This document shows, one piece after another, positions 11,147 to 32,000 of a DNA stretch of 32,000 bases (position 1 is its first letter; every line of letters starts with the position of its first letter). Position numbers and translations under genes: made by a program. The notes under the pieces were generated by a model. The model ran no database searches. It worked only from the letters and a program-made list of their open reading frames with translations, and was not told the DNA's origin. Source of the stretch: Candidatus Saccharimonadota bacterium (lineage in GTDB: Bacteria; Patescibacteriota; Gracilibacteria; BD1-5; UBA6164). The stretch covers positions 750,001 through 782,000 of the forward strand of contig OZ245922.1 of the NCBI GenBank assembly GCA_965229705.1, written 5' to 3'.

Positions 11147-12469
11147 ATGCACATAATATCTTTTATAGAAATCTTTTGGTTCTTTTTTCTCTGGATCAAT
11201 ATATATATTGTTTGGAGAGATATAGCGTTTCAAAAGATAGAAAACGCATCTGTATGAATACTTTTTGCGCTATGATGTATATGATTTTTATTTGGAATAC
11301 TGAGTTTTTCATGGTGAGTATTGCTCTGGTTCCACCTTATCTTCTTGTGTATATTTCTCCTCTTTTACTTTGGTATTTGGTGAGCTGGAGATGCGAAATA
11401 TATACTTGTACTGAGTATATTTTTACCTGTAGGAAGTGTTTTTACACTTTTTTGAAATATTGCGATTGTTACCCTCCTGTATCTCATAGTTCATAGTATA
11501 CATCTGTACATCATCAAAAGTCTGTATGATCTCTCTCATGGGAAAAATCTCTTCATGAAAATATATGCCGACCTCAGATCAAAATTTGATGTATTTCTTG
11601 GAGGAGACGAAGCTCAAAAATATCAATGGAAAAACCTGATAGAAAAAATATTCCCCTTCCTTATAGGGTTTTTGATATTTTTTATCATCGTGCGGCTTGT
11701 ACGAATATATGCTCTATGAGAATGGCTCTGAAATGAAGAGGGGTGAAACAAGATCTGACTCCTACTTCAAATCGCAACAGAGTATACAAGTATGATTGTC
11801 TTGGGAATTATTATATGAATATATATCATCTATAAAGCATGCAAGAAAATCTTTTCCTCTATTTTTATATATGTATATACGCGTTTTTGAGTCTCTCAAG
11901 AAACAGCAAGATATATATGACTTATTGTTTCAAGTATCGGACTTATAGGTTTTATATCATACGAATATATCAGTGGCTCGGAAGTGATATGATGATACCT
12001 TGTCATGATATTCAGCGTATATATATTTCTCTATCTTACTGTGCGTCTTCTCATATATCTCCATTATGTTACTTTTCAACTTGCAGAAGTGGTATATAAG
12101 CGTATTTGAGAACTACAAGTTTGAGAGAGGGTAGACAAAGATTTTTTGATTCAAATTTTTGGAACACAAAAAGCCCTCTGATACGGAGAGAAAAAATGAA
12201 AATATGGTCCTGAACCTCGAAATTTTTTTACAAGTATTGAAAATCCTCTCTCTCAAGAAGCCGTTAAAGAGTTACAAAACATTTATCGACTCACAAATAA
12301 TTATCATATAAGACAAAAAACACCAGGATTTCAAAAAATAGAAGCTGTAAAAACCATCAAAAGTTTTGCTTTTTCTCCTTATATATTTTTCGGACTTATG
12401 CTGACCTTGATATATGATGATGTCCTCAAGAGTATTGTGGAGTTTTTTATCCACCTTATCACATCCTAA
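11147..12469 (+). CDS. A24-family (prepilin/preflagellin) aspartic peptidase-like polytopic membrane protein with a long C-terminal extension (440 aa)
   Basis: The plus frame is open from 10988 to the TAA at 12467-12469 once TGA is sense; the first ATG is at 11147. Two A24-type Asp motifs are present: VWRDIAFQKIEN (Asp codon 11219-11221) and GIW-G(TGA)-AGDAKYILVLSIF (GxGDxK, Asp codon 11390-11392). Many hydrophobic segments occur throughout. Confidence 0.7.
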
Positions 12470-13410
12470 AATACACTCCGTATTTCTTCTATCACTTCTT
12501 TTTTTCTCTCAGGAGATACCGTTTTAGGGTGCACTTTGATATAGTGGTAGTATTTATCATACTCATATATTCCTGTACATATATCATTCCATCCACAATC
12601 TTTGCATTCAGGAAGTTTGGTATGTTCCCAGTCTCTTTGTCTGATAGATTCTCGTTCATCAAGAAAATGTACAATTCTCTCTTCTTCTTTTACTATTTTT
12701 CGTGTTTCTGTAGATGACCATTCATAGCCTTCGATGAAGCAAAGAGGGACCTTCTCTGCTCTAAATGTTCTTCCAGTAGATGTGAGAAAGGCCATGGCCT
12801 CTCTCAGTGAGTCCGAAAACTCTCAAAAATCAGGAAGTGTACTCCAAGCAGTATCTGTTTTACGCATCATGAGAGGGTCTAGATTGTTCCAAACAAAGTG
12901 CTCTATAGGAGGAAAATGACGAACAAGAAACTTCACTGTTGCATCTAAATGATGCTGATTGTAATGGTTCATTACCGTATTGATTTGTACTCGTATACCG
13001 AGGTTAAGAGCGTGCGTAATCGACTTCATCAGGCGTTTCCACGATCCTGGTGTATCTGTCAAAAAATCATGTATTTGTTCATAACAGGAAAAAACAGAAA
13101 AATGTATAAGTTCCAGTCAAGCATCAGCAAGACGCTTTGTATATTCATAACTTGAACAGAGCATCCCATTGGAAATGATTCTATTGGACATACCAATATC
13201 AAGAGCGTACTCTATCCAGGCTGGTAGGTCTTTTGAAAGAGTTGGTTCTCCTCCTGTAAATATCACACCATGATAGCCTCTCTTTTTAAAATCATCTATG
13301 AGCTCAATACCTTTTTCATAGCTAATACTCTTCCCATTACTTGGATTACTACAAAAATGACACTGATTGTTACAATGCCTATTTACTTGTATGTATCAAA
13401 TATTTGCCAT
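12466..13410 (-). CDS. radical SAM enzyme with a Cys-rich (SPASM/twitch-like) C-terminus, 314 aa (rSAM-1; HxsC candidate)
   Basis: Track ORFs 12466..12795 and 12823..13062 plus the stretch up to the ATG at 13408-13410 are joined in one frame by TGA codons. The N-terminus is MANIGYIQVNRHCNNQCHFC, with CxxxCxxC at 13351-13374. Also present: FTGGEPTL and a C-terminal CKDCGWNDICTGIY. The stop is TAG at 12466-12468. Confidence 0.85.
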
Positions 13411-14959
13411 GAGTAAAGAAAAAAATACCATTTTAAACAGTTTCAGTATAATTCCTCTTATGAATCATCAAAAAAATATTTGAAAAAAAGCAGAGAGTAT
13501 ATCCTTGCTGATACATCTGGGGTATCAAACCCCTCAAACAATATTTATTGATACAGAAAGAAATCTACAAGATCAAATCCAAGACATATTTGAGTCGGAA
13601 AACTACATTGTAAGACCAAGTTTTTATGATGAAGATACTCCTCAAAACTCTCAGGCATGAAAATATAGATCATATTGACCAATAAGTCTCAAGGAACTTC
13701 AAATATTTTTTGAGAAAAATCTGAAGGATATATGCTCTATTTTTTGATGAGAAGAACAAGATTTATGAAGTATCATCCTGCAAGAATTTATCAGCACAAA
13801 TACTTATGGTGTTGGATTTTCTCGAAATCCTGAAAACATACTCTTCTCTTGATGATATGAACTTCATTCATCTTTCAATGGTATTACATCAGGGAAAAAA
13901 TGAGATCAAAAAGGATCATTGTTTCTCGATTATAAAATTCAAAAAACCATTAAACGCTTAGAAATTTCTTTTTGATATCCTCAAGATGTTGAGTTTGCCG
14001 TAAAAAAATGACATATATATATCCTCCAAAGTAGAAATATCACTAGTGGGATAACATCTTTTTCGGAATATGCAAAATTTCAAAAAATGAGCGGAATATT
14101 TCAAAACTTGGATAACGGTGAGTTTTGAAGTGTAGCATATTTTTGAGTATCTTTTTTAGAAAACCTATATCATACACTTATCATTTCGTGAAATATCTTC
14201 TGAAAAAGAAAAAAAAATGGAAAAAAGTATTTAGAGCAAGATATACAAAAATTTCAAAATCTTTATGGCAAATACCTAAGATGGAAAAAAATACACTCTA
14301 TAGGAAGCTTTTTTCTCTTTTTTCAAAAATATGATGTAGATGTGCTCTCAACACTTTATAAAAACTGTGCCTATCAATTTTCTCCCACTATAGCAACACG
14401 CTTTCCTGAGATACAAAAAATATGAAACAATTATAATCTAAAAACTTCTTTGTTATTGCGAAGTGAGTTCCTTAAATATAAGGCTTTTCAGGCTTTAGAG
14501 CCGGTAAAAAAACGTATTCTTCAGGAAAATATATTTTGAGAGGATATAAACTATCTATCATATAAAGAATATCAAGATACATCTATCCATCATGAAGAAA
14601 TTATCAAGCAGAGAAAAAAATCTCATGCTATTCATAAGACATATAGCTCTTATATAGTGATGATTCAATGAAAAATCCAAAAAAAATATAACACATTTCT
14701 ATCAGACAATACAGGTAAAATATGGATATATAGATGAAAGCTTACATGAAAAAAAGTCAGAGATATCAAACAGATAGATATAAAATCAAAAAAGAAGTAT
14801 CTTTTGGAAATACAAAGTCTGGATGGAGATATTTCCAGGTACTTGCCCCGTTTATGATGAGTAATTTTGATAAATGGAAATATGTATTCTCACCACTGCA
14901 TACTTTTGCGAGAACATAGAATACCAAGTTACCTTATTTCTGAAGACTGTGAAAGATAG
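13409..14959 (+). CDS. PEP/pyruvate-binding plus PEP-utilising mobile (swivelling His) domain protein, PEP synthase / rifampicin-phosphotransferase-like, 516 aa
   Basis: I checked the plus frame codon by codon from the ATG at 13409 to the TAG at 14957-14959. It contains more than 25 in-frame TGA codons and no TAA/TAG. PPDK_N-like motifs: VRPSFYDED, GVGFSRNPEN, YPQDVEFAVKKGHIYILQSRNITS. The C-terminal mobile domain reads GGVILINGNMYSHHCILLREHRIPSY, matching the family pattern G..tSHaAI.aRe.giP. Confidence 0.75.
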
Positions 14960-15680: not shown

Positions 15681-16961
15681 TTATAATTTTTCTATCGGTT
15701 CAAGTATTTGAAATCCATAGCTTCGCAGAAAGTTTATATGAATTCCTTCACAGTTTTTAAAGTATTTACAAGAGTTGCACCTCAAAGATTTCTTTCGATA
15801 CAGCGTATCTATATACCTGTAAGTATAATCCGAGAGAGAATCCTCTGCTTTGACATCATGATAGTTTTGATATTTTCCTGATCCTCATAAACATTTTGGA
15901 ATATTTATGAGTTTGCCATGCTCTTTTTGTTTTTTCTTCAAAAATGCTCGAAACTCCTCCGGGCTTTCTCCATATGACTCATATACCTCACTTGGAAAAT
16001 TTTTTCATTCTACAATGTAGGCTTTCTCAAAAACTTGCTCCGACTCTTTGAGGTTTTTTAAAAATCAGTGACAAAACTGATGCTGAAAACATACCTCACA
16101 TGCGTCCCCAAAACAGCCTGGTTTTTCTTGTCATTTCGAAAGGATAAATCTCTCAAACATCCTATAGGCTTCTCCCATGATCTCCGACTTAAACTTGCGG
16201 GGGTCTTGTATTAGGTCTTCATATCCTTCAAACGCCTCAGCAGGAAATCTATTAGTCCACATATACATGCCCTCTACTCGTGAAAGACTCCAGGTTCGTA
16301 TAAGCTCATCCTTATAGTCCGCAATCTCATAAAAAAGTTTTTCTTTATTTTGCCTAAATCCTCTCCCAAAAGGAATAATCTGAAGAATATCAAACTCATA
16401 TACTCACAATCGCATAAAAAATGAAATAATATCAGGAAGGTAACGAACATTTGGCTTACAAACTACGATATCAATATTGACAATAACTTCGGGAAAAAAT
16501 TTTCGTATATATATCAATCCTGTAAGAGCTCTCTGAAAAGATCATGGTGCGTCTACGAGATAATCATGGAGTGCAGGGGTATGTCCATGAAAAGAAAATG
16601 TTACTTCCTCGAGTCCTGCGTCCACGACTTTTTTACAAAAGTCATAACTACGGAACATATTTCCATTTGTGACCGTTTGTACTCTATCATACCCAAGTTC
16701 CTTTGCGTAGCGTATATATTGTGGAAACTTTGGGTTGATACTTGCCTCTCCTCAAGAAATGATGACTCGGTTTTCATAACCTGCCTTGTACCCGTCTTTG
16801 ATTTCTTTTTTTACTTGTTCTTCTGAAGGAAATGTCCCATTTTGAGCATCGCTATCAAGACAAAAAACACATTTAACATTACAAGCAGAGGCAATGCGTA
16901 CCCAAATGCGATTTTGTTTTGTTGTGTGTTCTTTGGAGAGAAGATTTTCTTTATAAACCAT
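15681..16961 (-). CDS. radical SAM enzyme with two C-terminal Cys clusters (SPASM-like), about 426 aa (rSAM-2)
   Basis: I walked the frame from 16985 down to the TAA at 15681-15683; all interruptions are TGA. Motifs: ACNVKCVFC (16860-16883), VIIS-G(TGA 16752-16754)-EASINP for the GGE motif, and C-terminal CFGDACEVCFQHQFC and CNSCKYFKNCEG. The start is either the ATG at 16959-16961 or the TTG at 16983-16985. Confidence 0.85.
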
Positions 16962-19450: not shown

Positions 19451-19554
19451 ATGGAAGATATGACAAAAAAATCTTCAATCCACTCTGGCTCTATCGAGCC
19501 ACCTCTCCTTTGAAAAAGGAGAGAAAAAAGGACTTTCTCAGAGCTTCCTTATAA
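19451..19554 (-). repeat. copy 2 of the ~105-bp element (inverted; one arm degenerate)
   Basis: The reverse complement reads TTATAAGGAAGCTCTGAGAAAGTCCTTTTTTCTCTCCTTTTTCAAAGGAGAGGTGGCTCGATAGAGCCAGAGTGGATTGAAGATTTTTTTGTCAT.... Its right end overlaps the last codons and the TAA of rSAM-3 (19549-19551). Confidence 0.75.
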
Positions 19555-20520
19555 TATAATAGGTGTAAATATATCTTGAAACTCTTTTTCTCAAAATTGT
19601 TCTACATATCATTTCCATACTCACTGACAGGCATCTCGATATATGCATTTTTTACAGTGTGGAAACTGCGTTTTGAGAATGTCTTTCTTTCGTTTTTTCC
19701 AATTAAACTCATCCCCAGCATTGATATGGTCAACCTCTACAATATGATCATGATCTTCTCACAAATATTTTCGCGTGAGTTCTCTCCCATTTTTTTTATC
19801 AATAGCATAAAACACACAAGCAGGAATAGTATCAAAAGTGATACGTATATCATATTTTTCAGATATGTATATCAGTTTTTTTATATATGGGATAAAGTCA
19901 GAGTAGGTAATAGCCAGATCATCCCAGTACTCTCTCATATCATCATTGAGCCACATAAAGTTATAACGAATATCCCTCACTGATTTCTGAAAAGCGTAAA
20001 ATATTGCTGCTTCTCCCACAGTCTCGTAGTTCTTTTTATTGACAACATAGTTGATACTCAAGGCATCTTTGAGTAGTCCTTGCCTATGAAGTTCTTGGAG
20101 ATTATCTATTGCCTGCCACTTTCGTTCAAGTCCTCAGGGAACCTGGATGAGGTATTCTTCTACTTGTGGGATATATGAATGTATAGAGAAATTGACTCGC
20201 GTCACTCACGACTCAACAAATTTTCTTGCAAATAGGGGATCATCAAACTTCATGCCATTACTGATAACATTGATACTTGTAAATCCTTCATCTCTTGCAC
20301 ACGAAATAATCTCAAAGATTTTTGGATGTATAGAAATATCTCATCATAAAAATCCTATCGACTCATACCCTTCTGCTGCGTAGCCGGCTATCTTTTCTTG
20401 AAGGATTTCGAGTTTGACAAACTTGATATCCCAAAGCTCTGGTTTAGAACTCATACAAAAACGGCATTTATTATTACACGCCTTTCAAATATTTATCTCT
20501 ATATGCTTGTAGGGATTCAT
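19549..20520 (-). CDS. radical SAM enzyme with a short Cys-rich C-terminus, 323 aa (rSAM-3; HxsC candidate)
   Basis: The frame runs from the ATG at 20518-20520 to the TAA at 19549-19551 and includes track ORF 19759..20061. The N-terminus is MNPYKHIEINIGKACNNKCRFC (CxxxCxxC at 20455-20478). Also present: GFL-G-G(TGA TGA)-DISIHP and a C-terminal CKKCIYRDACQGVW. Confidence 0.85.
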
Positions 20521-20661: not shown

Positions 20662-21087
20662 ATGATGCAAGTAAATAGTCATTTAGGTGTTAACGAAAGT
20701 GCAAAAACACAAAGATCTCCTGTATATTGAATTGCTCATGCTGTAATAATAGCTGCTACTGCAATTCTTGCTACTTGATGTTCATCAGCTCCAGCAAACA
20801 CTGGTCAAGAAACTGTACTATCTGTAATAGAGGAATGACAACAATTTAAAAATTGGCCAACATTAGATAGATTCGGTCAATGTGAGTTCGACGATGAGCC
20901 TGAATATTATCAAAGACTGTGAGGAATGAGTACTAGATCAGAGCTAGAAGCTTATTATGAAGAAAATTGATGGGCTTTAAAACCTTGAGGTTACTGACAG
21001 CTTGTATTGAAGGTTTTGAAAAATGATCGTTTAACAGAAGCGGATAAGAGATCTCTCAGCTGTATCACTCTTGCGGGTTCAAATTAA
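20662..21087 (+). CDS. small lipoprotein, 141 aa, unknown function
   Basis: From ATGATG at 20662 to the TAA at 21085-21087, with 9 in-frame TGA codons. The lipobox is AILAT-G(TGA 20776-20778)-C-SSAP. The rest is acidic/aromatic (QCEFDDEPEYYQRLGG...EAYYEENGW). Confidence 0.7.
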
Positions 21088-21202: not shown

Positions 21203-21284
21203 AAAATATTTATCATACCCCTACATTGAGGTGGAGATTTTATATTATCGCTAAAGTCATTGCGTATATATAAAAGAAATCTTG

Positions 21285-21812
21285 TTATCTACCTCTTGTG
21301 TGTTGGTCTTTTCAACTTGATGAACTCCCATGACTCCCGTGTGAACCATGACTTCCGTGTGAACCATGTGATCAGTGAGATCAGTGACTCCCATGACTTC
21401 CATGGCTTCCATGTGATCAGTGACTCCCATGACTTCCATGTGATCAGTGACTACAGTGTCCTACAGGTGTCGCTGTTGCCGTAGGCTGAGCATTAAAATG
21501 TCCATTCACGATACCGCTTGAATGTGCTATAGAAAGGTTACATCACAGATTATAATTTCGATTTGATCCAGGATAACACACAGGAGTTGCACCTCATCAT
21601 CTATTTCCACTAAAGTGACCATACACTTCGGGTTCATTTATAGGATTAGCATATGAGTTACACTTTGGAAGCGCCGCATCTGCAAGCTCAATTCATCAAA
21701 GTAGCAGTCAGGCAGCTCCTATACCAAAAGCATCTTTTTTTGTGACTTTTCCACTCTCATCGGTGAGAAACTGTGAAAGTTTGAGTTTTATTTTTGGGAT
21801 TTTATTTTTCAT
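21285..21812 (-). CDS. hxsA: His-Xaa-Ser repeat protein (HxsA-like), 175 aa, ending in HCS followed by 14 HGS
   Basis: The minus frame from the ATG at 21810-21812 to the TAA at 21285-21287 contains 11 in-frame TGA codons. Translation: MKNKIPKIKLKLSQFLTDESGKVTKKDAFGIGAAGLLLGGIELADAALPKCNSYANPINEPEVYGHFSGNRGGGATPVCYPGSNRNYNLGCNLSIAHSSGIVNGHFNAQPTATATPVGHCS-(HGS)x14-SSSGKDQHTRGR. It lies 9 nt downstream of the HxsB-like gene on the same strand. Confidence 0.85.
21324..21458 (-). repeat. 15 x 9-nt coding tandem repeat (His-Xaa-Ser units)
   Basis: There are 15 consecutive CAY-(TGT/TGA/GGN)-(TCN/AGY) units. Gly is encoded by TGA in 4 units and by GGA/GGG/GGT in 10. Synonymous codons are mixed for all three positions. 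Confidence 0.9.
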
Positions 21813-21821
21813 GAGGTATTG

Positions 21822-23216
21822 TTAAAAAGCATAAGTAATCCATCGAGAAAAAAGTTTTTTTGCAAAATCATCATTTTCCAGTTTATCAAAGATATAGTCT
21901 AAAATTCATAACTGAAGCTTCATTTTTTGGTCTTCCATCATCGGAGAAAAGAGTGACTGATTTGTCTGAAAATTATGAATAATATCTACTCCAAGATATG
22001 GTTTATAAACATGGTCATTGTATCCAGGAAGTCCATCGAGACAACTCGATTGTACGGCTATCTTTGTAATAGGACTCGACATCATCGCTTTATAACTTTC
22101 TGCTCAATTTTCTTTGAGTTCTGTCATCAAAAAGTCTTCTATTCCCATTCGCCCTAACATGCGAGACTCATCACTTGCATAAATTTTCCCATCATAATTG
22201 TATGCCACTCACCCCACAGCAATACCACTCGGACTTCGTATATCCATAAATGCAGGATCAATATCATTAAATATCTTCATCAGGTACACAGAAGTGATTT
22301 GCTCTCTAAAGTCTTTTCACTGCTTGTTCAACTCTAAAATATAATCCATAGATTTTGTATAAAACTCCAGCCATTCATCTGCGGTATATGCCAATTTTTT
22401 CATATCTGCTGCGGCAAAACCATAAGGATTGAGCCATCTCAGAAAAATACCATCAAGTCATATATCCAAATAACTGTTAATAAGTCTTTGATATTCTGGA
22501 AGATTCTTCTTGGTTACCGTCATGAGAGCCCCTATCTTTGATCTCCCTTCTTTTTGTTTTCTGGCATTGATATGTTTGATCCAATAAGTAACTTTTTCAA
22601 AGCTATTTCCCTGAAAACCCGAACGATTCATATTATGATGTTGTTCATCGCCATCAAGGCTGGTACAGATAGAAATATTTCTCTCTAGGAGCCAATCCAG
22701 CTTTTCGTGAGTCATCAGTGTGAGATTACTCACGAGAGCAAAGCTCAGATTTTTTTGGAGATATTGAGCTCGAATGCTGGCATATTCAACAACAAATTGC
22801 AAAACTTCCCAATTTACCAGTGGTTCTCCTCACTGAAACTCTATGGTAATATTTTGTGCATTGGTATGAAGTATAGTATCAACGCATCTTTGCGCCGTCT
22901 CTTGCGTCATATCCAAGCCCTTTGCCGACATAGGTGCTACCGCTGCATGACAATACTGACAATGATGATTGCAACGAAGCGTCAGCACCATCATATGAAG
23001 AGCAGGTCATTGTCCTACAAAATGACTTTTTGCACCATAGGCTCTTGTCATCCATCTCTCATAATCTGGAGTTTTGATAAAGCCTTTTGCAACAAGGTCT
23101 TCGTAAGCATCAAGTTTTTCGAGAGTATTTCATGTAAGAAATGTTTCAAAATCTTGAGCAGATAAAAAATGAAATCGTCATGCGTCATTTGTGAGGAGAT
23201 ATGATCATGACATCAT
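21822..23216 (-). CDS. hxsB: radical SAM maturase, HxsB-like, 464 aa (rSAM-4)
   Basis: I walked the frame from ATGATG at 23211-23216 to the TAA at 21822-21824; it includes track ORF 22458..22802. Motifs: LTLRCNHHCQYCHA (Cys codons 22950-22973) and IEFQ-G(TGA 22830-22832)-GEPLV. It has the long N-terminal pre-domain and the size typical of the larger of the paired Hxs radical SAM proteins, and it sits directly upstream of the HGS-repeat gene. Confidence 0.8.
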
Positions 23217-23271
23217 TTTTTTAAAGCGAAAAAATCATATTTTTTCGGTATTTATACCTAAAATGCTCTCT

Positions 23272-23481
23272 TTATTCATACTGTATGCTTATAACATAAT
23301 TCATAAATTCTTGGAAAATATACGCCTCTTCATAGTCTTTTCCCTTTGAGGTAATAGTAATAAGAAATGTTCCTTCAGAAGAAGTAACAACAATATCAGC
23401 AATATCTTTATAGGCCTCTTTAGCACTTTCAAGAGCGTATTTTCAGTATATTTCTGAAGAAATTGAAAAAGAAGGTGTCAT
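23272..23481 (-). CDS. small protein, 69 aa, resembling the N-terminal half of the adjacent HxsD-like protein
   Basis: From the ATG at 23479-23481 to the TAA at 23272-23274: MTPSFSISSEIYGKYALESAKEAYKDIADIVVTSSEGTFLITITSKGKDYEEAYIFQEFMNYVISIQYE. The pattern is the same as residues 1-80 of the upstream gene (I..S.EIY...I..A.Y, a beta-rich middle, then EEIF..Y.N). Confidence 0.5.
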
Positions 23482-23487
23482 ATTTTT

Positions 23488-24045
23488 TTATTGAGTTTTA
23501 AACTTTTCTTTCATATCTTTCATCCCTTGAAGGTTTGCGGTAATTTTTGGCTTTTGTATACTTTTCTCTTCTATCTCCTTAAGTACTGACTCTATTTGCT
23601 TCGTATCTATATGGAGTTCTCTATCTTCTTCTATTTCTTTGAGTATATCATCTATATCTCTATCAAAATTGATGCTGTTATGAGCATTCTCATTTTGATC
23701 GCTATCATACGATACAAAGTGCTCTTGATCAAGAGGTCCTGTGAGAGCCTTATGAATAATGGTTTCTCGAATTTTTTGATTATCTTTTTCAAGTCTGTCT
23801 CGGAGATATGTGTCCAAAAGTTGATTGCTATATCTTCCAAAAATCTCCTCAATATCTGTTTCTACTCCATCTTTGAGGCTGATACTGAGAACAAGTCTCT
23901 TATCTGCGTCATAGTGAAAGAAAAAATATCCTATATCAAGGAGGTTATATGCCGCCTTAAAAATAATATCTTGAGCATAAATACTGGTATCAAGTATGAG
24001 TTCTCATTTTTTTCACTCGGCTTTTATAGAAAAAAAATCATCCAT
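23488..24045 (-). CDS. hxsD: HxsD-like protein (LLNDYxLRE-motif family), 185 aa
   Basis: From the ATG at 24043-24045 to the TAA at 23488-23490, extending track ORF 23488..23817 upstream through 2 TGA codons. It contains YSNQLLDTYLRDRLEKDNQKIRETIIHKAL, which fits the xLxDxxLR[DE] core of the HxsD signature, and it is the first gene of the hxs operon. The C-terminus is an acidic, coiled-coil-like tail. Confidence 0.65.
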
Positions 24046-24371: not shown

Positions 24372-24734
24372 ATGTTTAGATTATTTTGGGTCTTAGCCAG
24401 TTCTTCTCTTTTTTTTTCTGCTTGCGACATTTCGCAAGCAACAAAAAAAGAAAGTAATGTATTCAGCGCTATCGCGCCGAGATACAAAGATTTTTCTGGA
24501 GTCGACCACAAAAATATTCTTTGTGCCAATCCCGAAACCTATCGTACGGTAGGTCGAATGAAAACGGTTAAGCAAGTTCAGCGTTATTACGCTGAACTCG
24601 GATTCACAGGAGATATCCCTCGTGACAGCCCTTATGGGGCTGCAATTACTGCACTGCAAGGCACCAGCTTCACAATGCAAAAGGAAAAAGAGGAAGCATA
24701 TTGCTTCCATCAAGAGGACACAGGAGAGCTATAA
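24372..24734 (+). CDS. small lipoprotein, 120 aa, unknown function
   Basis: The track ORF is intact with no TGA. MFRLFWVLASSSLFFSAC is a signal peptide with a lipobox Cys. An SD-like TAGGAG lies 6 nt upstream of the ATG, and a strong terminator follows. Confidence 0.75.
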   Translation: MFRLFWVLASSSLFFSACDISQATKKESNVFSAIAPRYKDFSGVDHKNILCANPETYRTVGRMKTVKQVQRYYAELGFTGDIPRDSPYGAAITALQGTSFTMQKEKEEAYCFHQEDTGEL

Positions 24735-24921: not shown

Positions 24922-25209
24922 ATGACTCAATATGAACTTATGATGATTCTCGACCCTGCTGTAGGAGAAAAAGAAAGAGCAGCAAGCGTTCAGAATGTCG
25001 AAACACTCCTCAAGAACGCAAAAGCAAAAGGAGTGAAAAAAGATGAGTGGGGTGAAAAAAAGCTCGCTTATAAAATAAAAGGCTCGCAAACAGGATACTA
25101 TATCTTGTGGTCTCTTGAGCTTGAAGGTACAGCTATCAAGAAAATGAATAATGAACTAAACCTTGATGGAAATATTTGGAGATACATGTTTGTTAATTTA
25201 GATGACTAA
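24922..25209 (+). CDS. rpsF: 30S ribosomal protein S6
   Basis: Intact ORF: MTQYELMMILDP...EWGEKKLAYKIKG...GYYILW. These are typical S6 motifs, and the gene lies in the rpsF-ssb-rpsR arrangement. Confidence 0.95.
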   Translation: MTQYELMMILDPAVGEKERAASVQNVETLLKNAKAKGVKKDEWGEKKLAYKIKGSQTGYYILWSLELEGTAIKKMNNELNLDGNIWRYMFVNLDD

Positions 25210-25218
25210 TACTATACT

Positions 25219-25629
25219 ATGAGAACGATAAATAAAGTAATCTTGATCGGAAATATTACCCGAGATCCTCTTATCAAAACAACCGAATGAGGAAAAAAAA
25301 TGGCAATGTTTACTACCGCAACAAATAGATATTATAAAACCTCTGATGGAGAAAATAAGTCTGAAGCAGAGTTTCATAACTGTGTCGCGTGGGGAACTCT
25401 TGCTGAAAGAGCTGAGCAGTTTCTCACAAAAGGAAAACTCGTTTATATAGAATGAAGACTCAAAACACGAGTCATAGAAAAAGAGGATGGAGAAAAAAAC
25501 TACAAAACCGAAGTCGTGGTAGCAAATATCATCTTCCTCAATAAAAAAGGCGACTTTGATGACAGTACATCAGAATCTCCCGAAACCCTCGATGCTCTTG
25601 AAAGTATTGATGACGATGATATGTTTTAA
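25219..25629 (+). CDS. ssb: single-stranded DNA-binding protein, 136 aa
   Basis: MRTINKVILIGNITRDPLIKTTE-G-GKKMAMFTTATNR...[32 protein letters not shown]...DDDDMF. The two in-frame TGA codons (25288-25290, 25453-25455) fall at conserved Gly positions. The acidic C-terminal tip is typical of SSB. Confidence 0.95.
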
Positions 25630-25650
25630 ACTCAACAAATACTCATATCC

Positions 25651-25713
25651 ACTTTCTACTTTTAACTTTCGAACTTTTCCCTTTCAACTTTCAACTTTCT
25701 ACTTTTAACTTTC
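25651..25713 (+). repeat. pyrimidine-rich direct repeats in the ssb-rpsR spacer
   Basis: ACTTTCTACTTTTAACTTTC occurs at 25651-25670 and again at 25694-25713, with CTTTCAACTTTCAACTTTC between them. Confidence 0.7.
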
Positions 25714-25740
25714 CCCTTTTACCTTTATAACACCCTTACT

Positions 25741-25962
25741 ATGAACCAAGAAAAAACTTGTCCACTTGACGGACAAAACATTGACTATAAAAATGTTGAA
25801 CTTCTCAAAAAATACCTTACAAAATTTGGAAAAATCATCCCAAGATACTACACTTGAGTATCTCTGAAAAACCAAAAGAAACTGGCAAAAGCTATCAAAA
25901 GAGCAAGAATCATGGCTCTTATCCCTTTTGTAAAAAGATTTGATCCAAACTTTGGAGCATAA
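25741..25962 (+). CDS. rpsR: 30S ribosomal protein S18, 73 aa
   Basis: [39 protein letters not shown](TGA 25855-25857)-VSLKNQKKLAKAIKRARIMALIPF. These are canonical S18 motifs. Confidence 0.95.
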
Positions 25963-27324: not shown

Positions 27325-29127
27325 ATGTCATTTCGAAATATCGCGATTATCGCACACGTAGACCATGGAAAAACTACTCTTGTCGACGAACTCTTAAAAG
27401 CTGCTGATGGCTTTGATACGCGTATTGGTATCGAGGAGCGCGCTATGGATCACAATGCTCAAGAACAAGAAAGAGGAATTACTATTTACTCAAAAAACAC
27501 CTCTATCAGGTACAAAGGTGATAAAATCAATATTGTGGATACTCCAGGTCATGCCGATTTTGGAAGTGAGGTAGAACGAGTACTCAGAACCGTAGATAGT
27601 GTATGTCTTGTAGTTGACGCCTATGAAGGTCCAATGCCCCAAACAAAGTTTGTCCTCAAAAAATCTCTCGAACTCGGTCTCAAACCTATTGTGGTCATCA
27701 ATAAAATGGATAAACCCAGTGCCAGATCTTCATGGGTGGTAGACCAACTTTTTGACCTCTTTGTCCAACTTGGAGCACAAGACGAACAACTTGAAAATCT
27801 TTACTCTCCTGTATATGCGGTTGCTCGTGATGGTCTTGCATGGACCGATGAAAATGATAACAGAGAAAATATTACTCCTCTTTTAGATTATATTATCTCC
27901 ACTGTTCCCGAAGCTCCAAATGATTCACATGCTCCATTTAAAATGCAGATCGCAAATCTGGGGTATGACAATTTTCTTGGTCGTCTCGGTGTTGGTCGTG
28001 TGTACGAAGGTGTTGTAAAACAAGGCCAAGATGTATGGGTTGCTGATAATGATGGAAAGAAAAGGAAAGGGAAAATCACCGAAATACTCACAAACGAAGG
28101 ACTCGAGAAAGTAAAAGTTCCAGAAGCTGAAGCTGGAGATATCGTAACTATTGCCGGAATTGCTGATATATTTGTTGGAGAAACTGTATCAACAAGTGAA
28201 GATGCGGAGGCTCTCCCTGCTATCACTATTGATGCGCCCACTCTCAAGATGGATTTTCTCGTCAATAACTCTCCTTTTGCTGGAAGAGAAGGAAAATTTG
28301 TAACCAGTAGACAAATACGAGAAAGGCTTGAAAAGGAGCTGGAAACCAATGTTGGACTCAAGATTGATTTTGACTCAGGAGAAAACTATGAAGTTGCCGG
28401 TCGAGGAGAACTCCATCTCTCCGTCCTCATAGAAACGATGCGAAGAGAATGATTTGAACTACAGGTATGAGCTCCTGTTGTTATCATGCACGAAGAGGAA
28501 GGAATAAAGATGGAACCTATAGAAAATGTTGGTATATCTGTCTCATCATGATCTGAATGAGCTGTTATAGCAGAGCTTGGTAAACGAAAGGGGATGATGA
28601 GTCATATGGAAGAAGAAAATGGTGTTGTATCACTAGAATTCAAAGTGCCAACTCGAGGACTCCTTGGTTTTAAGTCAGAGTTTACTACTATGACTAAGGG
28701 TGAGGGACTTCTCTCAAGTAGCTTTGAATGTTTTGAAGAATATAAAGGACCCATCGAAAAAAGGAATGTATGATCTATGATCTCTATGGAAAATGGTACA
28801 GCTATGGCGTACTCACTCTTTAATCTTCAAGAAAGAGGAACAATATTTATCACTCCTCAAACAGAGCTATATGAGGGAATGATTATTGGTGAATCGAGTA
28901 AAGATCAAGATCTCACGGTCAATGCCACAAAAAATAAAAAATTGACGAATGTTCGTGCAAGTGGAACTGATGAAGCTCTCAAGCTTACTCCTCCAAAGAT
29001 TATGAGTCTCGAAGAAGCGATTGATTACATCTCTTCTGATGAATATGTGGAAATAACTCCTGAAAATATTCGTCTGCGAAAAAAATGGCTCAAAGAACAT
29101 GAGAGAAAAAAACATAAGAATGGATAA
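27325..29127 (+). CDS. typA: translational GTPase TypA/BipA, 600 aa
   Basis: Track ORFs 27325..28452 and 28777..29127 are in the same frame and are joined by 5 in-frame TGA codons. Motifs: [18 protein letters not shown], ...[16 protein letters not shown](28450-28452)-FEL..., and C-terminal [14 protein letters not shown]. The sequence is colinear with BipA over its full length. Confidence 0.95.
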
Positions 29128-29183: not shown

Positions 29184-29723
29184 TTATACTCTATACACAT
29201 AAAAATACTTATTATCCCTCACATGAATCTTTTCATAATAATCTACTCCCGGTACTTCAAAAGAGCTGGAATACAATAAAGTTCCCGAACGACATTCTCG
29301 ACAAACCTTATTATGTACTCGTTTCATATGAAATGGAAGCAGATAGCAATATACAACATCTGCCTCTGAAATATCGGTAGAAAAAAAATTTGCTCTTCGA
29401 ATATCATAAGAAACATCTGACTCTTTTTGTCTTCTTTTTGCAAGAAAATAGGGATGAAAAGAGTTTTCTATTCAGATACATGTAACTGCTGGAAAGTGCT
29501 TTTTTACTGCTTCTACCACTTTTCCATCACCACATCCGATATCATAAAAAATACTTCCCGAACGCAGTTTGAGAGACTCACAGAGCTTTGTGATTTTGTA
29601 ATCTGGAGTAGGGACATAGGGGACACCGTATCAAAATATTACTGGAAGTAATACTTGAATAGTAAACAAGAATAGGAGTACAAGAACAATAAAACAGGCA
29701 AGAAAAATAGCAATAAAAAGCAT
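29184..29723 (-). CDS. class I SAM-dependent methyltransferase with an N-terminal TM helix, 179 aa
   Basis: From the ATG at 29721-29723 to the TAA at 29184-29186, with 2 in-frame TGA codons. MLFIAIFLACFIVLVLLFLF is followed by ...IFYDIGCGDGKVV (motif I) ...DVVYCYLLP. Confidence 0.8.
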
Positions 29724-30535
29724 TAGAGATCAAACTGTGATGTAATATTATTCATAAATGTTGTATCATCTTGCTCTCGTCTTTGTTGCTCATACATCTC
29801 AGCATCAGCTCATACAATATATCGCAATGTATCAGTTCCATCTGTTGCTGCCTCATATATTTTTTCTGCTACAAGTGATGCAGGTGAAGCAACTTCAAGG
29901 ATTCATCACATAGCATTCATCAATTTTCCAAAAATATTTTGATACTCTGTGAGTGACTCATCGTTTTGCATATCAAAAGAACGTGTAGCAAAGTCTGTGA
30001 TGATTGCCCCTGGTTCAATAATCTTTACTTTTCCTCCAAACTCTGCAAGTTCATATGAGAGTGATTCTGATATTCCTTCTACAGCAAATTTTGTTCCATG
30101 ATAGAGGGATACTAAAGGAAAGGTCATCTTTCCTCCTATCGAAGAAACATTCATAAGTATTCCTGACTTATTATCTCGAAAGTGTGGAAGAAAAGTCTTT
30201 GTTACTTCTAAAAGTCCTATGACATTTACCTCAAACTGACGACGAATAGCATCCATAGAAAAAGCCTCAACAGGACCAGCAGTTCCATATCCTGCGTTAT
30301 TGAGGAGCACATCTACGATTCCAAACCTTTCTATTGCTGACTGATATGCTGACTGAATACTTGCGGAGTCTTGTACATCAAGTCGCGTTACAAGAACATT
30401 ATCAAGATCTGTAAGCTCTGTTTCTTTCTCTGGACTTCTCATGCTGGCAACAACATTCCACCCTTTTTCGTGAAATAATTTTGCTGTTGCTTTTCCGATA
30501 CCACTACTTGATCCCGTAATAAAAATAGTTTTCAT
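29723..30535 (-). CDS. short-chain dehydrogenase/reductase (classical SDR), 270 aa
   Basis: Track ORF 29906..30535 extends through TGA TGA at 29903-29908 to the TAA at 29723-29725. Motifs: TGSSSGIGKA, NNAG, S...YHGTK. The stop overlaps the methyltransferase start (TAATG). Confidence 0.9.
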
Positions 30536-30615: not shown

Positions 30616-32000
30616 TTACAAATGATTTTGTTCCCATTCTTGAAGAGCCTGTGTACTTTCAAGAACAAATTTTGTGTCTACTTCTCTCCCTCATAAGAGA
30701 ATAAAAATATGTATTTCTCACTTTTCTTGTACTGAGAGAAAATCTTTGAGATCATGAATTTGATCAAGAGAGGTGCCTTGTGGTATTTCTACAATATATT
30801 TTCATGATTCTTGAGAAATCATTTTTTCTACTTTTTCATATTTATTTTCTTCTATTTTGGCTTCGAGTTTTTTTTCAAAAACCTCTTCAGAGTCTCCCTC
30901 TCATTTGGCAACTTCACTTTCACGCTCTTTCTCCTCAAAAGAGGAGGACGATAAAAACGCTAAGTCTCTTTTTGAGGTGTCAAAGAGATTCATATCTCGA
31001 GCCTGAGCTCTTAGCTGTGTAAGCGTTGCTGTTATGATTTTTCGGGCACGAATATTTTTTCTCCTATACTCAAAATTTATATCCAAACTTCACTCTACAA
31101 TCACTATTTTTCATACTGTTACTGTATCTTTATACTCGTCATAGTCTCTGTCAAAAATCGTAACTTCAAAATCATATGCATATGACTCACAATAAAGAAA
31201 CAACATATTTTTTCCTGTTTTTGTCACAACTTTTCTTATGTCCATAACGATTCCTACTGTTTGAAGTTGCTGTTTTTTCAAATCTTGCTCAAATTTTTCC
31301 TCATCTTTTTGATAAATCTTTTGAAGCTCTTCCAACCTCATTTGTAGATACTGAGTAGATCGAGATCTTCGAGAAATATATGTTCTTAATCCGTCAAGCG
31401 GGTGTCCAGATACCATATAACCAAGTACTTCTCTTTCTCAAAAAAGTCGCTCTTCATAGGTCATGTGCTGTCATTTTCTGAGAGAAAAACTCTCGTCAAA
31501 AACCTCTCATCAAAGACCTGAGTCAAATAGTCCCATTTGCATTGAGTCTTTCTTCTTTTCTTCATTTTTACTCATTCGAATCATATCATCGATATTTGCA
31601 AAGAGATCTGCTCTTTCGCCAAACTGATCCATTGCTCAGGCAAGTATCATCGCCTCAAGAGACTTTTTGAGCATCACTTCACGTCCTCATCGCTTCACAA
31701 AGTCATCAATATGCTCAAAAGGTTTTTCTTTTCGAGCTGCAAGTATCGCGTCAATAGGTCCATCTCAGAGTCATTTTATAGCTTTAAGTCCGAAACGGAT
31801 ATGACTATCATCAATATAGGTAAAATGTTTGAGAGACTCATTTACATCTGGTCTGAGTACCTCAATATTATGAGACTTCGCTTCTGCAACTTCAAGAATA
31901 ATACGGTCCATATTTTCCTCATCTGAGATCATCATAGAAGTGAGAAACTCTGTTCTATAATGCGCCTTAAGATACGCTGTCTGGTAGGCAATAAGAGCAT
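30616..32000 (-). CDS. dnaE: DNA polymerase III alpha subunit, C-terminal part (the 5' end lies beyond the window)
   Basis: The minus frame is open from the window end to the TAA at 30616-30618 with TGA as sense. It reads ALIAYQTAYLKAHYRTEFLTSMMISDEENMDRI...IRFGLKAIKG-LGDG...GYMVSGHPLDGLR, followed by an OB-fold segment (QTVGIVMDIRKVVTKTGKNMLF). Confidence 0.9.

What the first reader, a model, noticed from the sequence alone, without database searches (positions are those of the whole stretch)
21285..21812. Hidden 175-aa peptide ending in HCS plus 14 HGS repeats, with glycine partly encoded by UGA (HxsA-like substrate)
With table 25, the minus strand encodes a protein with three parts: a basic N-terminus followed by a short hydrophobic stretch (KKDAFGIGAAGLLLGGIELADAAL), a Cys/Gly/Asn-rich middle, and a C-terminal run of 15 His-Xaa-Ser triplets.

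The repeat mixes synonymous codons at all three positions: CAC/CAT, TGA/GGA/GGG/GGT, and TCA/TCT/AGT/AGC. So the periodicity is conserved at the peptide level and is not recent DNA slippage. The gene holds 11 UGA codons, four of them inside the repeat. Under the standard code the gene is invisible and only antisense or off-frame ORFs (21257..21439, 21260..21484) are called.

His-Xaa-Ser repeat proteins (HxsA) are the presumed substrates of the TIGRFAMs-defined but biochemically uncharacterised His-Xaa-Ser radical SAM system. A CPR, code-25 example with a perfectly regular HGS array could be a tractable substrate for working out the chemistry. Possibilities to test include metal binding by His/Ser arrays and rSAM crosslinks or epimerisation.
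Basis: partly seen in the sequence, partly recalled or inferred. Interest (0 to 1): 0.9.

Follow-up and report, generated by a model that had tools for sequence, protein, structure and literature searches.

The report
Hidden His-Gly-Ser repeat protein gene
A real but uncalled gene, readable only when UGA is read as glycine, encodes a divergent His-Xaa-Ser repeat protein at the end of an hxsD-hxsB operon; it extends a recently described anti-phage radical-SAM system into tiny uncultured bacteria, in a stripped-down form.

Summary
Window 21812..21285 (minus strand) is a 175-codon ORF with 11 in-frame UGA. It ends in HCS plus 14 HGS.

UGA means glycine here. It aligns to Gly, never Trp, in TypA, and it supplies a Gly of the radical-SAM GGEP motif in HxsB. 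In the repeat it alternates with GGN and never with TGG.

The gene is the last of a tight operon: hxsD, an hxsD-like gene, hxsB, then hxsA-like. The first three pass NCBIfam cutoffs. Three HxsC-like radical SAM genes lie downstream.

The protein has at least 261 homologues, which form 315 clusters at 50% identity. They share a conserved leader (FLTDESGK-TKKDA), a hydrophobic export segment and a core motif (H-x-S-G-I-V-N-G-H). They keep the same gene neighbourhood in Gracilibacteria, Peribacteria, Omnitrophota, Myxococcota and Elusimicrobiota.

The protein is not a modelled HxsA. TIGR03979 gives no hit, HxsA4 scores 53.8 against a cutoff of 55, and HxsA3 scores 31 against 65.

A 2026 paper shows that E. 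coli HXS is an anti-phage system.

This locus differs from that system in four ways:
- it has no canonical HxsC;
- it has no peptidoglycan-binding domain;
- its repeat array is almost uncharged at neutral pH;
- its HxsB has lost all seven SPASM cysteines.

Verdict: a real gene and a new variant of a known kind, of moderate interest.

The parts
23488..24045 (-). hxsD, 185 aa; first gene of the operon
   Evidence: TIGR03976 scores 54.0 bits against a cutoff of 50, over residues 18-102. It contains QLLDTYLRDRLEK, which resembles the LLNDYxLRE motif. HxsD holds the same position in L001, L002, L004, L005 and L006.
23272..23481 (-). hxsD-like small gene, 69 aa; its end overlaps the hxsB start by 8 nt
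   Evidence: NF038315 (HxsD_rel) scores 52.5 bits against a cutoff of 41. A 61-67 aa ORF sits in the same place in L001, L002, L004, L005 and L006.
21822..23279 (-). hxsB, a 485-aa radical SAM maturase. It has CxxxCxxC at C103/C107/C110, and the first Gly of its GGEP motif is encoded by UGA. All seven SPASM auxiliary-cluster cysteines are lost.
   Evidence: TIGR03978 scores 466.6 bits against a cutoff of 370. P0121 is this gene translated with table 4.
21285..21812 (-). hxsA-like CDS: 175 aa, 11 UGA(Gly). It starts 9 nt after the hxsB stop.
   Evidence: There are 261 homologues and alignment A1 shows the conserved columns. Sub-threshold HMM hits to HxsA4 and HxsA3.
21729..21812 (-). Residues 1-28: a basic N-region carrying the family-conserved leader motif FLTDESGK(V/I)TKKDA
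   Evidence: F15, L16, E19, S20, K26 and A28 are invariant in 36 sequences. This is the segment that matches the HxsA3 profile at positions 2-41. Net charge is +4.5.
21672..21728 (-). Residues 29-47: a hydrophobic segment (FGIGAAGLLLGGI) followed by ELADAA. This looks like an export signal with a signal-peptidase-like A-x-A site.
   Evidence: The Kyte-Doolittle maximum is 2.08 at residues 28-38. A46 is conserved in at least 90% of sequences. AF2 of the closest homologue predicts a helix at 25-45. No signal-peptide predictor was available, so this is inference.
21495..21527 (-). Residues 96-106, AHSSGIVNGHF: the conserved core motif H-x-S-G-[IV]-V-N-G-H
   Evidence: H97, V102, N103 and H105 are invariant, and S99 is conserved in at least 90% of sequences. 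The motif is present in 58 of the 120 listed homologues.
21324..21458 (-). Residues 119-163: the His-Xaa-Ser array, HCS plus 14 HGS, with four X positions encoded by UGA
   Evidence: for the array, for the 18- and 27-nt higher-order DNA units. Array charge is +1.1 at pH 7 and +11.3 at pH 5.5.
19549..20520 (-). rSAM1: a 323-aa HxsC-superfamily radical SAM protein
   Evidence: The best NCBIfam hit is HxsC4 at 103.6 bits (cutoff 500); HxsC scores 54.5. Relatives at 30-36% identity lie in HxsA loci L007, L020, L030 and L041.
15681..16961 (-). rSAM2: a 426-aa HxsC-superfamily radical SAM protein
   Evidence: HxsC4 scores 131.7 bits and HxsC 79.6, both below cutoff. An ortholog at 65% identity lies in L002/L003 and one at 37% in L007.
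12466..13431 (-). rSAM3: a radical SAM protein of about 314-321 aa and the closest thing here to HxsC. The true start is probably the M of MANIGY at 13410.
   Evidence: TIGR03977 scores 100.2 bits over profile positions 29-289 of 292, against a cutoff of 267.9. Orthologs at 40-47% identity lie close to, in L022 directly after, hxsA-like in L015, L022, L020, L007 and L040.

Best explanation
**What it is (high confidence, about 0.9)**
- This is a genuine protein-coding gene of a bacterium that reads UGA as glycine. By closest matches the organism is a Gracilibacteria-type Patescibacterium.
- It is the fourth and last gene of a tightly packed operon: hxsD, hxsD-like, hxsB, hxsA-like.
- It encodes a divergent member of the HxsA class of His-Xaa-Ser repeat proteins.

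**How it most likely works (inferred, about 0.4)**
1. The pre-protein carries a long basic N-region with a conserved motif (FLTDESGK-TKKDA). This probably acts as a recognition leader for the maturation enzymes.
2. A hydrophobic export segment follows, ending in an A-x-A-type cleavage site.
3. In the cytoplasm, HxsB covalently modifies one or a few His/Ser positions. It works with the two small HxsD-type proteins and probably with one or more of the three HxsC-like radical SAM enzymes encoded downstream.
4. The invariant core H-x-S-G-I-V-N-G-H is the best candidate for the modified site. The HxS array is the other candidate.
5. The leader is removed and the product is exported to the cell envelope.
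6. There the (HGS)14 tail forms a multivalent poly-histidine array. It is nearly neutral at pH 7 and strongly cationic below about pH 6.
7. By analogy with E. coli HXS, the matured protein would act at the envelope as a barrier to incoming phage DNA.

**What is shown and what is inferred**
- Shown here: gene reality, genetic code, operon membership, family conservation and domain anatomy.
- Inferred: modification, export and the anti-phage role.
For: **Genetic code**
- UGA at TypA residues 376, 412 and 483 aligns to Gly in E. coli BipA. None of the 5 TypA UGA aligns to Trp. TGG at residue 137 aligns to Trp.
- HxsB UGA150 lies in the GGEP motif.
- In 20 HxsA-like genes (19 locus entries, L002/L003 being one gene, plus the window's), the X codon of the repeat is mostly GGN, sometimes TGA or a Ser, Ala, Cys or Thr codon, and never TGG. 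Standard-code members use GGN.

**Operon**
- HxsB scores 466.6 against 370. HxsD scores 54.0 against 50. HxsD_rel scores 52.5 against 41.
- Only 9 nt separate hxsB from hxsA.

**Conservation**
- 261 homologues, forming 315 clusters at 50% identity.
- Invariant leader and core columns.
- All 36 aligned members hit the HxsA3 N-terminus, and 14 hit HxsA4.

**Synteny**
- The order HxsD, small ORF, HxsB, HxsA-like appears in L001, L002, L004, L005 and L006 and in many genome loci across five phyla. HxsC-like radical SAM genes lie nearby.

**Function by analogy**
- In E. coli, HxsB, HxsC and HxsD are all needed for N-terminal processing, a +8 Da modification in an HxS motif, export of HxsA and protection from phage (PMC13128918).

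**Export signal**
- Hydrophobicity peaks at residues 28-38, A46 is conserved, and a helix is predicted at 25-45.
Against: **Family thresholds not met**
- No model for HxsA, HxsA2, HxsA3 or HxsA4 reaches its cutoff.
- BLASTP finds no similarity to a canonical Aeromonas HxsA or HxsD.

**Canonical parts missing**
- No rSAM gene reaches the HxsC cutoff. The best scores 100 bits against 268 and lies about 8 kb away, beyond a gene on the opposite strand.
- There is no peptidoglycan-binding domain.

**Electrostatic model may not transfer**
- The array has no Arg or Lys. Its charge is only +1.1 at pH 7, against +4.4 for the shorter canonical array.

**Enzyme differences**
- HxsB lacks all seven SPASM cysteines. 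In E. coli, mutating the second cluster abolished defence.

**Context does not look like defence**
- The locus sits among housekeeping genes (rpsF-ssb-rpsR, typA, dnaE), not in an obvious defence island.
- The source genome has two HxsB paralogues.
- PADLOC has no HXS model. The only hits were generic viperin-type rSAM matches.

**No direct evidence**
- There are no expression or proteome data.
Confidence: 0.6

Rival explanations
1. This is the same gene and the same maturation machinery, but the product is not a phage barrier. Instead it is a constitutive cell-surface or envelope component of these reduced bacteria. It could be a modified poly-histidine array that binds metal ions (Ni, Zn or Cu), or one that mediates attachment. 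A larger multi-rSAM pathway would make it.
For: - The array holds 15 His and no Arg or Lys, and is nearly neutral at pH 7. His-rich arrays are classic metal ligands (my own knowledge).
- The flanking genes are housekeeping genes.
- There are two HxsB paralogues in a genome of about 1 Mb.
- The 120 best HxsB clusters are all at least 55% identical to the window's HxsB, which suggests wide presence in the clade.
- In related loci the core is followed by many rSAM genes plus sugar-modifying enzymes: DegT, an epimerase, GT2 and a carbamoyltransferase.
Against: - The only experimentally studied relative is an anti-phage system.
- Flanking genes differ between genomes, as expected for an accessory module.
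- There are no metal-handling genes in the window.
- Prevalence was not measured.
Confidence: 0.3
2. The tail is a bacterial collagen-like (Gly-X-Y)n triple-helix segment, read as (Gly-Ser-His)n, and the protein is a structural fibre.
For: - Pfam Collagen (PF01391) scores 29.4 bits against a gathering score of 27.2, over residues 123-162.
- There are weak hits to the Scl1, Scl2 and Lcl adhesins.
Against: - Across leader-bearing homologues, 32% of X positions are not Gly.
- In 62 of 81 members the longest run contains at least one non-Gly X. That would break a triple helix.
- His and Ser are the invariant positions.
- The array has only 14-15 triplets, no Pro, and no trimerisation domain.
- The genomic context is the HxsB/HxsD operon.
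Confidence: 0.03
3. The ORF is not a gene. It would be an accidental open frame created by a DNA tandem repeat, made visible only by treating UGA as a sense codon.
For: - Under table 25 many spurious ORFs open up, including a 140-aa mirror ORF on the plus strand at 21282..21704.
- The exact protein is absent from a 15-billion-sequence collection, although the neighbouring HxsB from the same genome is present.
Against: - The non-repetitive N-terminal 118 residues are conserved in 261 homologues, with invariant columns.
- The position directly after hxsB is conserved across phyla.
- UGA usage equals the window average.
Confidence: 0.02

Closest known systems
HXS anti-phage system of E. coli and Klebsiella: HxsD-HxsB-HxsC-HxsA (Li et al. 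2026, PMC13128918; families TIGR03976-03979)
   Same: - HxsB and HxsD are true family members here.
- A small protein with tandem His-Xaa-Ser repeats and an N-terminal export-type segment is encoded in the same operon.
- The expected logic is the same: radical SAM maturation, N-terminal processing, then export.
   Different: - The gene order is D, D-like, B, A, with no canonical HxsC.
- HxsA fails TIGR03979.
- The repeats are C-terminal, not N-terminal. There are 15 of them, against 5-7, and X is Gly rather than Arg, Ser or Tyr.
- There is no peptidoglycan-binding domain.
- HxsB has no SPASM cysteines.
- The host is a code-25 Patescibacterium, and the locus sits among housekeeping genes rather than on a plasmid or defence island (one search shows the canonical context).
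NCBIfam variant models HxsA4 (NF038313), HxsA3 (NF038309), HxsD_rel (NF038315) and HxsC4 (NF038332); for example the Omnitrophota HxsA4 locus L004
   Same: - The core is the same: HxsD, small HxsD-like ORF, HxsB, then a repeat protein followed by several HxsC-like rSAM genes.
- The leader logic is the same (FLxxEEGK...), with an HGS/HSS array and, in most relatives, a C-terminal W.
- HxsD_rel passes its cutoff here.
   Different: - The window protein scores 53.8 against 55 for HxsA4, on the repeat only. It scores 31 against 65 for HxsA3, on the leader only.
- None of the 36 aligned relatives appears to reach the HxsA3 cutoff. This is inferred from the best E-value of 7.9e-13.
- This subfamily has an extra variable middle region with the invariant H-x-S-G-I-V-N-G-H core, which is absent from the Omnitrophota and Myxococcota members.
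- The rSAM partners are far below the HxsC4 cutoff.
Leader-guided radical SAM/SPASM peptide maturases of RiPP pathways (SCIFF, PapB ranthipeptide, CcpM and others)
   Same: - After HxsB itself, these are the next-best matches of this HxsB.
- The substrate has a conserved N-terminal leader and a repetitive core encoded next to the enzyme.
   Different: - The product is a protein of about 130 aa with an export signal, not a short secreted peptide.
- There are no Cys-based cross-link motifs.
- The SPASM clusters that those enzymes need are missing here.
Bacterial collagen-like proteins (Pfam PF01391; Scl1/Scl2, Lcl)
   Same: Formal Gly-X-Y periodicity over about 14 triplets. The Pfam hit is just above threshold.
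   Different: - The Gly position is not conserved in the family.
- There is no Pro, no trimerisation domain and no anchor domain.
- The context is a maturase operon.

Membership tests
HXS (His-Xaa-Ser) system | HxsB radical SAM maturase (TIGR03978) encoded in the locus | tested here: met
   466.6 bits against a cutoff of 370, covering profile positions 3-466 of 466. CxxxCxxC and GGEP are present.
HXS (His-Xaa-Ser) system | HxsD small protein (TIGR03976, LLNDYxLRE-type motif) | tested here: met
   54.0 bits against a cutoff of 50. The sequence QLLDTYLRDRLEK is present.
HXS (His-Xaa-Ser) system | HxsC radical SAM maturase (TIGR03977) next to HxsB | tested here: not met
   The best match is rSAM3 at 100.2 bits against 267.9, about 8 kb away. 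rSAM1 scores 54.5 and rSAM2 79.6. All three have HxsC or HxsC4 as their best family, so they are distant relatives only.
HXS (His-Xaa-Ser) system | HxsA repeat protein matching TIGR03979 | tested here: not met
   TIGR03979 is not listed even at max E-value 10. Only 2 of the 36 relatives hit it weakly. BLASTP finds no match to Aeromonas HxsA.
HXS (His-Xaa-Ser) system | Tandem His-Xaa-Ser repeats in a small protein encoded in the operon | tested here: met
   15 consecutive HxS at residues 119-163, and the gene starts 9 nt after hxsB.
HXS (His-Xaa-Ser) system | Peptidoglycan-binding domain in HxsA (E. coli type) | tested here: not met
   The only Pfam hit is Collagen. AF2 of the closest homologue shows no folded domain after residue 45.
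HXS (His-Xaa-Ser) system | N-terminal signal peptide, export and maturase-dependent cleavage | tested here: inconclusive
   A hydrophobic segment at 28-41 and a conserved A46 look like a signal with an A-x-A site. No signal-peptide predictor or experiment was available.
HXS (His-Xaa-Ser) system | Auxiliary (SPASM) Fe-S cluster cysteines in HxsB | tested here: not met
   All seven Cys columns are replaced by S, S, Y, H, L, D and M. 104 of the 120 closest homologues have at most 1 Cys in the last 150 aa.
HXS (His-Xaa-Ser) system | Anti-phage activity by blocking DNA entry, and the +8 Da modification | not testable with these tools
   Known only for E. coli HXS.
HxsA4 (NF038313) | Whole-protein score at or above 55 bits | tested here: not met
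   53.8 bits. Only residues 112-163 align, to profile positions 41-92 of 93.
HxsA3 (NF038309) | Whole-protein score at or above 65 bits | tested here: not met
   31.1 bits. Only residues 5-44 align, to profile positions 2-41 of 81. All 36 relatives hit it, with a best E-value of 7.9e-13.
HxsD-like protein (NF038315) | Score at or above 41 bits, and the gene lies between hxsD and hxsB | tested here: met
   52.5 bits. The position is conserved in related loci.
HxsC4 (NF038332) | Score at or above 500 bits | tested here: not met
   131.7 (rSAM2), 103.6 (rSAM1) and 82.0 (rSAM3). The rSAM genes of an NCBI-named HxsA4 locus also fall short, reaching 159 bits.
Genetic code 25 (UGA = Gly) | In-frame UGA aligns with Gly, not Trp, in conserved proteins, and ORFs are restored | tested here: met
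   - Summed ORF length (ORFs of at least 100 aa) rises from 3754 to 19396 aa.
- TypA: 3 of 5 UGA align to Gly and none to Trp.
- UGA lies in the GGEP motif of HxsB.
- At repeat X positions the codons are GGN and TGA plus occasional Ser, Ala, Cys or Thr codons, never TGG.
- No tRNA gene lies in the window, so the suppressor tRNA was not seen.
Collagen triple-helix repeat (PF01391) | Uninterrupted Gly at every third residue, conserved among relatives | tested here: not met
   The window protein scores 29.4 bits against 27.2. However, 32% of family X positions are not Gly, and 62 of 81 relatives have an interrupted run.

The most novel reading that the evidence does not exclude
In Gracilibacteria and their relatives, the module of hxsD, hxsD-like, hxsB and hxsA-like, plus several HxsC-like radical SAM enzymes, is a distinct system and not a copy of the proteobacterial defence.

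- Its HxsB has lost both auxiliary Fe-S clusters, so it must use different chemistry or act only as a scaffold.
- It works on an exported protein whose invariant H-x-S-G-I-V-N-G-H core and long uncharged (HGS)n tail are the substrates.
- The product would be a new kind of post-translationally modified poly-histidine envelope polymer.
- That polymer could be a phage-entry barrier adapted to a cell without an outer membrane, or a metal-binding or attachment structure needed for the episymbiotic lifestyle.
Probability: 0.25. Interest if true: 0.7.

Novelty: new variant of a known kind. Interest (0 to 1): 0.45.

Why it matters
- The 2026 description of HXS placed 99.7% of systems in Pseudomonadota. 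This locus belongs to a sister family of at least 315 clusters at 50% identity, found in Patescibacteria, Omnitrophota, Myxococcota and Elusimicrobiota. No current HxsA model captures it, and the gene was not called in this genome's public protein set.
- The variant removes or changes features thought important in E. coli: HxsC, the peptidoglycan anchor, the basic repeats and the second Fe-S cluster of HxsB. Comparing the two should show which parts of the mechanism are essential.
- In E. coli, in vitro reconstitution has failed so far. The small size, perfectly regular array and single-cluster HxsB of this variant could make it a simpler substrate-enzyme pair for solving the unexplained +8 Da chemistry.
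- There is also a practical lesson. Genes rich in Gly are lost when code-25 genomes are annotated with the wrong translation table.

Tried and rejected
- **Structure prediction.** The closest homologue, P0001, modelled with alignment A2, gave pLDDT 53 and pTM 0.24. Only two N-terminal helices were predicted, so no fold search was run.
- **Source genome context.** Look-ups of the encoding contigs for P0121 and P0135 found nothing on record. The second HxsB locus of the source genome therefore could not be inspected.
- **Link to NifH-like clusters.** Méheust et al. 2020 (bioRxiv 10.1101/765248) described group VI NifH-like genes with multi-rSAM clusters in Elusimicrobia, Gracilibacteria and Myxococcales. 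No NifH P-loop motif was found in the window or in the 57 loci then held, L001-L057, so the link is unsupported within ±8-10 kb.
- **PADLOC.** It has no HXS model. Only generic viperin-type rSAM hits appeared.
- **Viral contigs.** No relative was found.
- **RNA genes.** No tRNA and no Rfam family in the window, so the UGA-decoding tRNA-Gly was not seen.
- **Promoter and terminator scan.** Nothing above chance around the operon.
- **Flp-pilin reading of the leader.** The FLTDESG motif recalls Flp prepilins, but there is no Pfam Flp hit, so the idea was dropped.
- **UGA enrichment.** Rejected: 34% of Gly codons in this gene against 34% in the rest of the window.
- **GC content.** The profile shows no island-like break at the locus.
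Full report
**Observation**

The minus strand of window 21812..21285 is a 528-nt open frame once UGA is read as a sense codon. Its product is 175 aa. It ends ...PVG-HCS-(HGS)14-SSSSGKDQHTRGR, with the 15 H-x-S triplets at residues 119-163 (21458..21324).

The frame contains 11 TGA codons, four of them inside the array. Elsewhere in the window, in all six frames, the longest H-x-S run is 2.

Two refinements follow.
- TRF finds 27-nt and 18-nt higher-order units at 93-95% identity. Codons are also linked within triplets: CAC-TGA-TCN occurs four times and CAT-GGR-AGY six times. So block duplication did shape the array.
- UGA supplies 34% of Gly codons in this gene and 34% in the rest of the window. 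The count of 11 UGA simply reflects a Gly-rich gene.

**Genetic code**

Treating TGA as sense raises the summed length of ORFs of at least 100 aa from 3754 to 19396 aa.

In TypA (27325..29127), UGA at residues 376, 412 and 483 aligns with Gly of E. coli BipA. None of the five UGA aligns with Trp, while a TGG codon aligns with Trp. In HxsB one UGA supplies a Gly of the radical-SAM GGEP motif.

In 20 HxsA-like genes recovered from other genomes and the window, the X codon of the repeat is mostly GGN, sometimes TGA or a Ser, Ala, Cys or Thr codon, and never TGG. Standard-code relatives use GGN. The conserved C-terminal Trp of many relatives is a true TGG. The code is therefore 25, not 4. No tRNA gene lies in the window.

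**The locus**

Reading 5' to 3' on the minus strand:
- hxsD, 24045..23488 (TIGR03976, 54.0 bits against a cutoff of 50).
- A 69-aa hxsD-like gene, 23481..23272 (NF038315, 52.5 against 41).
- hxsB, 23279..21822 (TIGR03978, 466.6 against 370).
- Nine bases later, the gene in question.

A lipoprotein gene on the opposite strand follows. Then, again on the minus strand, come three radical SAM genes: 20520..19549, 16961..15681 and 13431..12466. Their best NCBIfam matches are HxsC4 or HxsC, far below cutoff. They are interspersed with a TPR lipoprotein, a 435-aa protein and a membrane protein, none of which recurs in related loci.

The surroundings are housekeeping genes: rpsF-ssb-rpsR, typA, an SDR and dnaE. 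GC content shows no island.

**Is the gene real?**

A search of 5.8 billion clusters returned 261 homologues. A profile search of 1.84 billion representatives returned 315 clusters at E ≤ 1e-3 and 133 at E ≤ 1e-10.

An alignment of 36 members shows invariant F15, L16, E19, S20, K26 and A28. These form the leader motif FLTDESGK-TKKDA. It also shows invariant H97, V102, N103 and H105, which form the core H-x-S-G-[IV]-V-N-G-H, and the invariant His and Ser of the repeats. The middle region varies in sequence and length.

Gene order is conserved: HxsD, a 61-67 aa ORF, HxsB, then the HxsA-like gene. It appears in metagenomic contigs L001, L002, L005 and L006, which by the UGA-rich HxsA-like genes on them are UGA-recoded, and in an Omnitrophota genome (L004) whose protein NCBI names HxsA4.

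A scan of one genome per GTDB species found relatives in Gracilibacteria, Peribacteria, Omnitrophota, Myxococcota, Elusimicrobiota and others. Most have HxsB directly upstream. Relatives of the window's three rSAM genes (about 30-65% identity) lie nearby, sometimes immediately after the repeat gene.

The exact window protein, in either its table-25 or table-4 translation, is absent from the 15-billion-sequence collection. Its neighbour HxsB is present as P0121, a table-4 translation from a 1,006,762-bp contig. So the gene is "hidden" in this genome, but its family is not unknown.

**Family placement**

TIGR03979 (HxsA) gives no hit. HxsA4 scores 53.8 against 55 and aligns only to the repeat. 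HxsA3 scores 31.1 against 65 and aligns only to the leader.

All 36 aligned relatives hit HxsA3 weakly and 14 hit HxsA4. BLASTP against a canonical plasmid-borne Aeromonas system matches HxsB at 32% identity but matches neither HxsA nor HxsD.

The protein therefore belongs to an un-modelled HxsA subfamily. It sits inside a system whose enzymes are bona fide HXS members.

**What is known**

Li et al. 2026 (PMC13128918) describe E. coli HXS, with gene order HxsD-HxsB-HxsC-HxsA.
- It blocks phage DNA entry.
- HxsA needs HxsB, HxsC and HxsD for N-terminal processing, for a +8 Da modification in the SHRSS repeat, and for periplasmic accumulation.
- Each HxS repeat is required.
- They report 99.7% of systems in Pseudomonadota.

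**How this variant differs**

1. It has no canonical HxsC. Instead there are three distant HxsC-like paralogues.
2. An extra HxsD-like protein is present.
3. The repeats are C-terminal, 15 long, with X = Gly. The array carries +1.1 charge at pH 7 and +11.3 at pH 5.5, against +4.4 at pH 7 for the shorter canonical array.
4. There is no peptidoglycan-binding domain. AF2 of the closest homologue predicts only two N-terminal helices.
5. The window's HxsB has all seven SPASM cysteines replaced within an otherwise conserved backbone: RSPSGIAVGG...YASDESRML...GYNDHVYKPYLGVD against RSPCGAGIGQ...YTCDEGRM...GCSDCVYKPYCGVCP.
   - 104 of its 120 closest homologues likewise have at most one Cys in the last 150 aa.
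   - Omnitrophota and Elusimicrobiota HxsB keep all seven.
   - Myxococcota and the canonical Aeromonas HxsB keep most of them.

**Mechanism**

The best-supported model is as follows.
- A leader-bearing pre-protein is modified in the cytoplasm by HxsB with the HxsD-type proteins, and probably by HxsC-like enzymes.
- It is processed near the conserved A-x-A site after the hydrophobic segment (residues 29-47) and exported.
- It acts at the envelope through its modified core and its pH-switchable poly-His tail.

The anti-phage role is carried over from E. coli by homology of the enzymes, and I give it about 0.4. A constitutive envelope or metal-binding role is a serious rival at about 0.3. It is favoured by the housekeeping context, the two HxsB paralogues per roughly 1-Mb genome, and the neutral array.

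A collagen-like reading is unlikely, despite a Pfam Collagen hit of 29.4 against 27.2. Gly at X is not conserved: 32% of X positions are non-Gly, and 62 of 81 relatives have an interrupted run. A non-coding artefact is excluded by the conservation.

**Verdict**

The finding is a new variant of a known kind. The HXS class is known, its variants are partly catalogued in NCBIfam, and HxsB is already annotated in Gracilibacteria. What has not been described is this HxsA subfamily, the operon without HxsC, and the SPASM-less HxsB. Interest is moderate at 0.45.

Noticed in passing
window 21822..23279 (-), C-terminal third of HxsB (residues about 350-455): All seven SPASM/auxiliary Fe-S cysteines of HxsB are replaced (S351, S369, Y420, H423, L429, D432, M453), while the surrounding motifs are kept. 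The same holds for both HxsB paralogues of the source genome, and 104 of the 120 closest homologues have at most one Cys in the last 150 aa. A second CPR clade keeps three of the seven, and other phyla keep most or all.
   Followed up: yes
L046 (Gracilibacteria JAWUYB010000022.1), from 6556, + strand: A 307-aa protein has the HxsA-type leader and scattered HxS motifs, fused to a C-terminal Hint/intein-like domain (CFTF...VHN). A normal HxsA-like paralogue lies just downstream at 7542.
   Followed up: no
L006 9609 and 10001; L046 6556 and 7542; L055 1036 and 1578: Several genomes carry two tandem HxsA-like genes after hxsB, including standard-code Myxococcales. The repeat protein therefore duplicates readily.
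   Followed up: partly
window 20662..21087 (+) and 24372..24734 (+): Two small lipoprotein-like genes on the opposite strand flank the hxsD-hxsA operon. They are weak paralogues (BLASTP E = 6e-7, 24% identity). Neither matches any Pfam family, and the first also matches no NCBIfam family (the second was not scanned).
   Followed up: partly
window 1..10965 (-): A giant ORF of more than 3600 aa with 82 UGA codons runs off the window start. It looks like a large secreted or surface protein with an N-terminal hydrophobic segment. It was not scanned against domain libraries.
   Followed up: no
window 13409..14959 (+): A 516-aa gene lies between rSAM2 and rSAM3. Only a short match to the ATP-binding part of PEP-utilising enzymes was found (PPDK_N, 47.6 bits). 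A homologue sits in the Peribacteria HxsA locus L026 (196 bits), so it may belong to the extended system.
   Followed up: partly
window 11147..12469 (+): A polytopic membrane protein has a near-threshold prepilin-peptidase match (Peptidase_A24, 25.4 bits against 26.5) and a GAGDAKY motif. The HxsA leader motif FLTDESG superficially recalls Flp prepilins, but no Pfam support was found for that link.
   Followed up: partly
window about 24960..25960 (+), 27325..29127 (+), 29723..30535 (-), 30616..31935 (-): Ordinary housekeeping genes border the locus: rpsF-ssb-rpsR, typA/bipA, an SDR and the C-terminal part of dnaE. This is not a typical defence-island context.
   Followed up: partly
L002, L004, L005, L006 downstream of hxsA-like: In related loci the HXS core is followed by runs of two to seven radical SAM genes. 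Sugar-modifying genes (DegT, epimerase, GT2, carbamoyltransferase, AsnB) often accompany them. The taxa involved (Elusimicrobia, Gracilibacteria, Myxococcales) are those reported to have NifH-like plus multi-rSAM clusters (bioRxiv 10.1101/765248). No NifH motif was found in the loci held.
   Followed up: partly
L010-L014, L016 (Myxococcota-type MAG contigs, one labelled Klebsiella pneumoniae MAG): Full-length HxsA-like genes (40% identity over residues 1-163) have no HxsB, HxsD or HxsC-like gene within ±8 kb. Either the maturases are encoded elsewhere or these copies are orphans.
   Followed up: no
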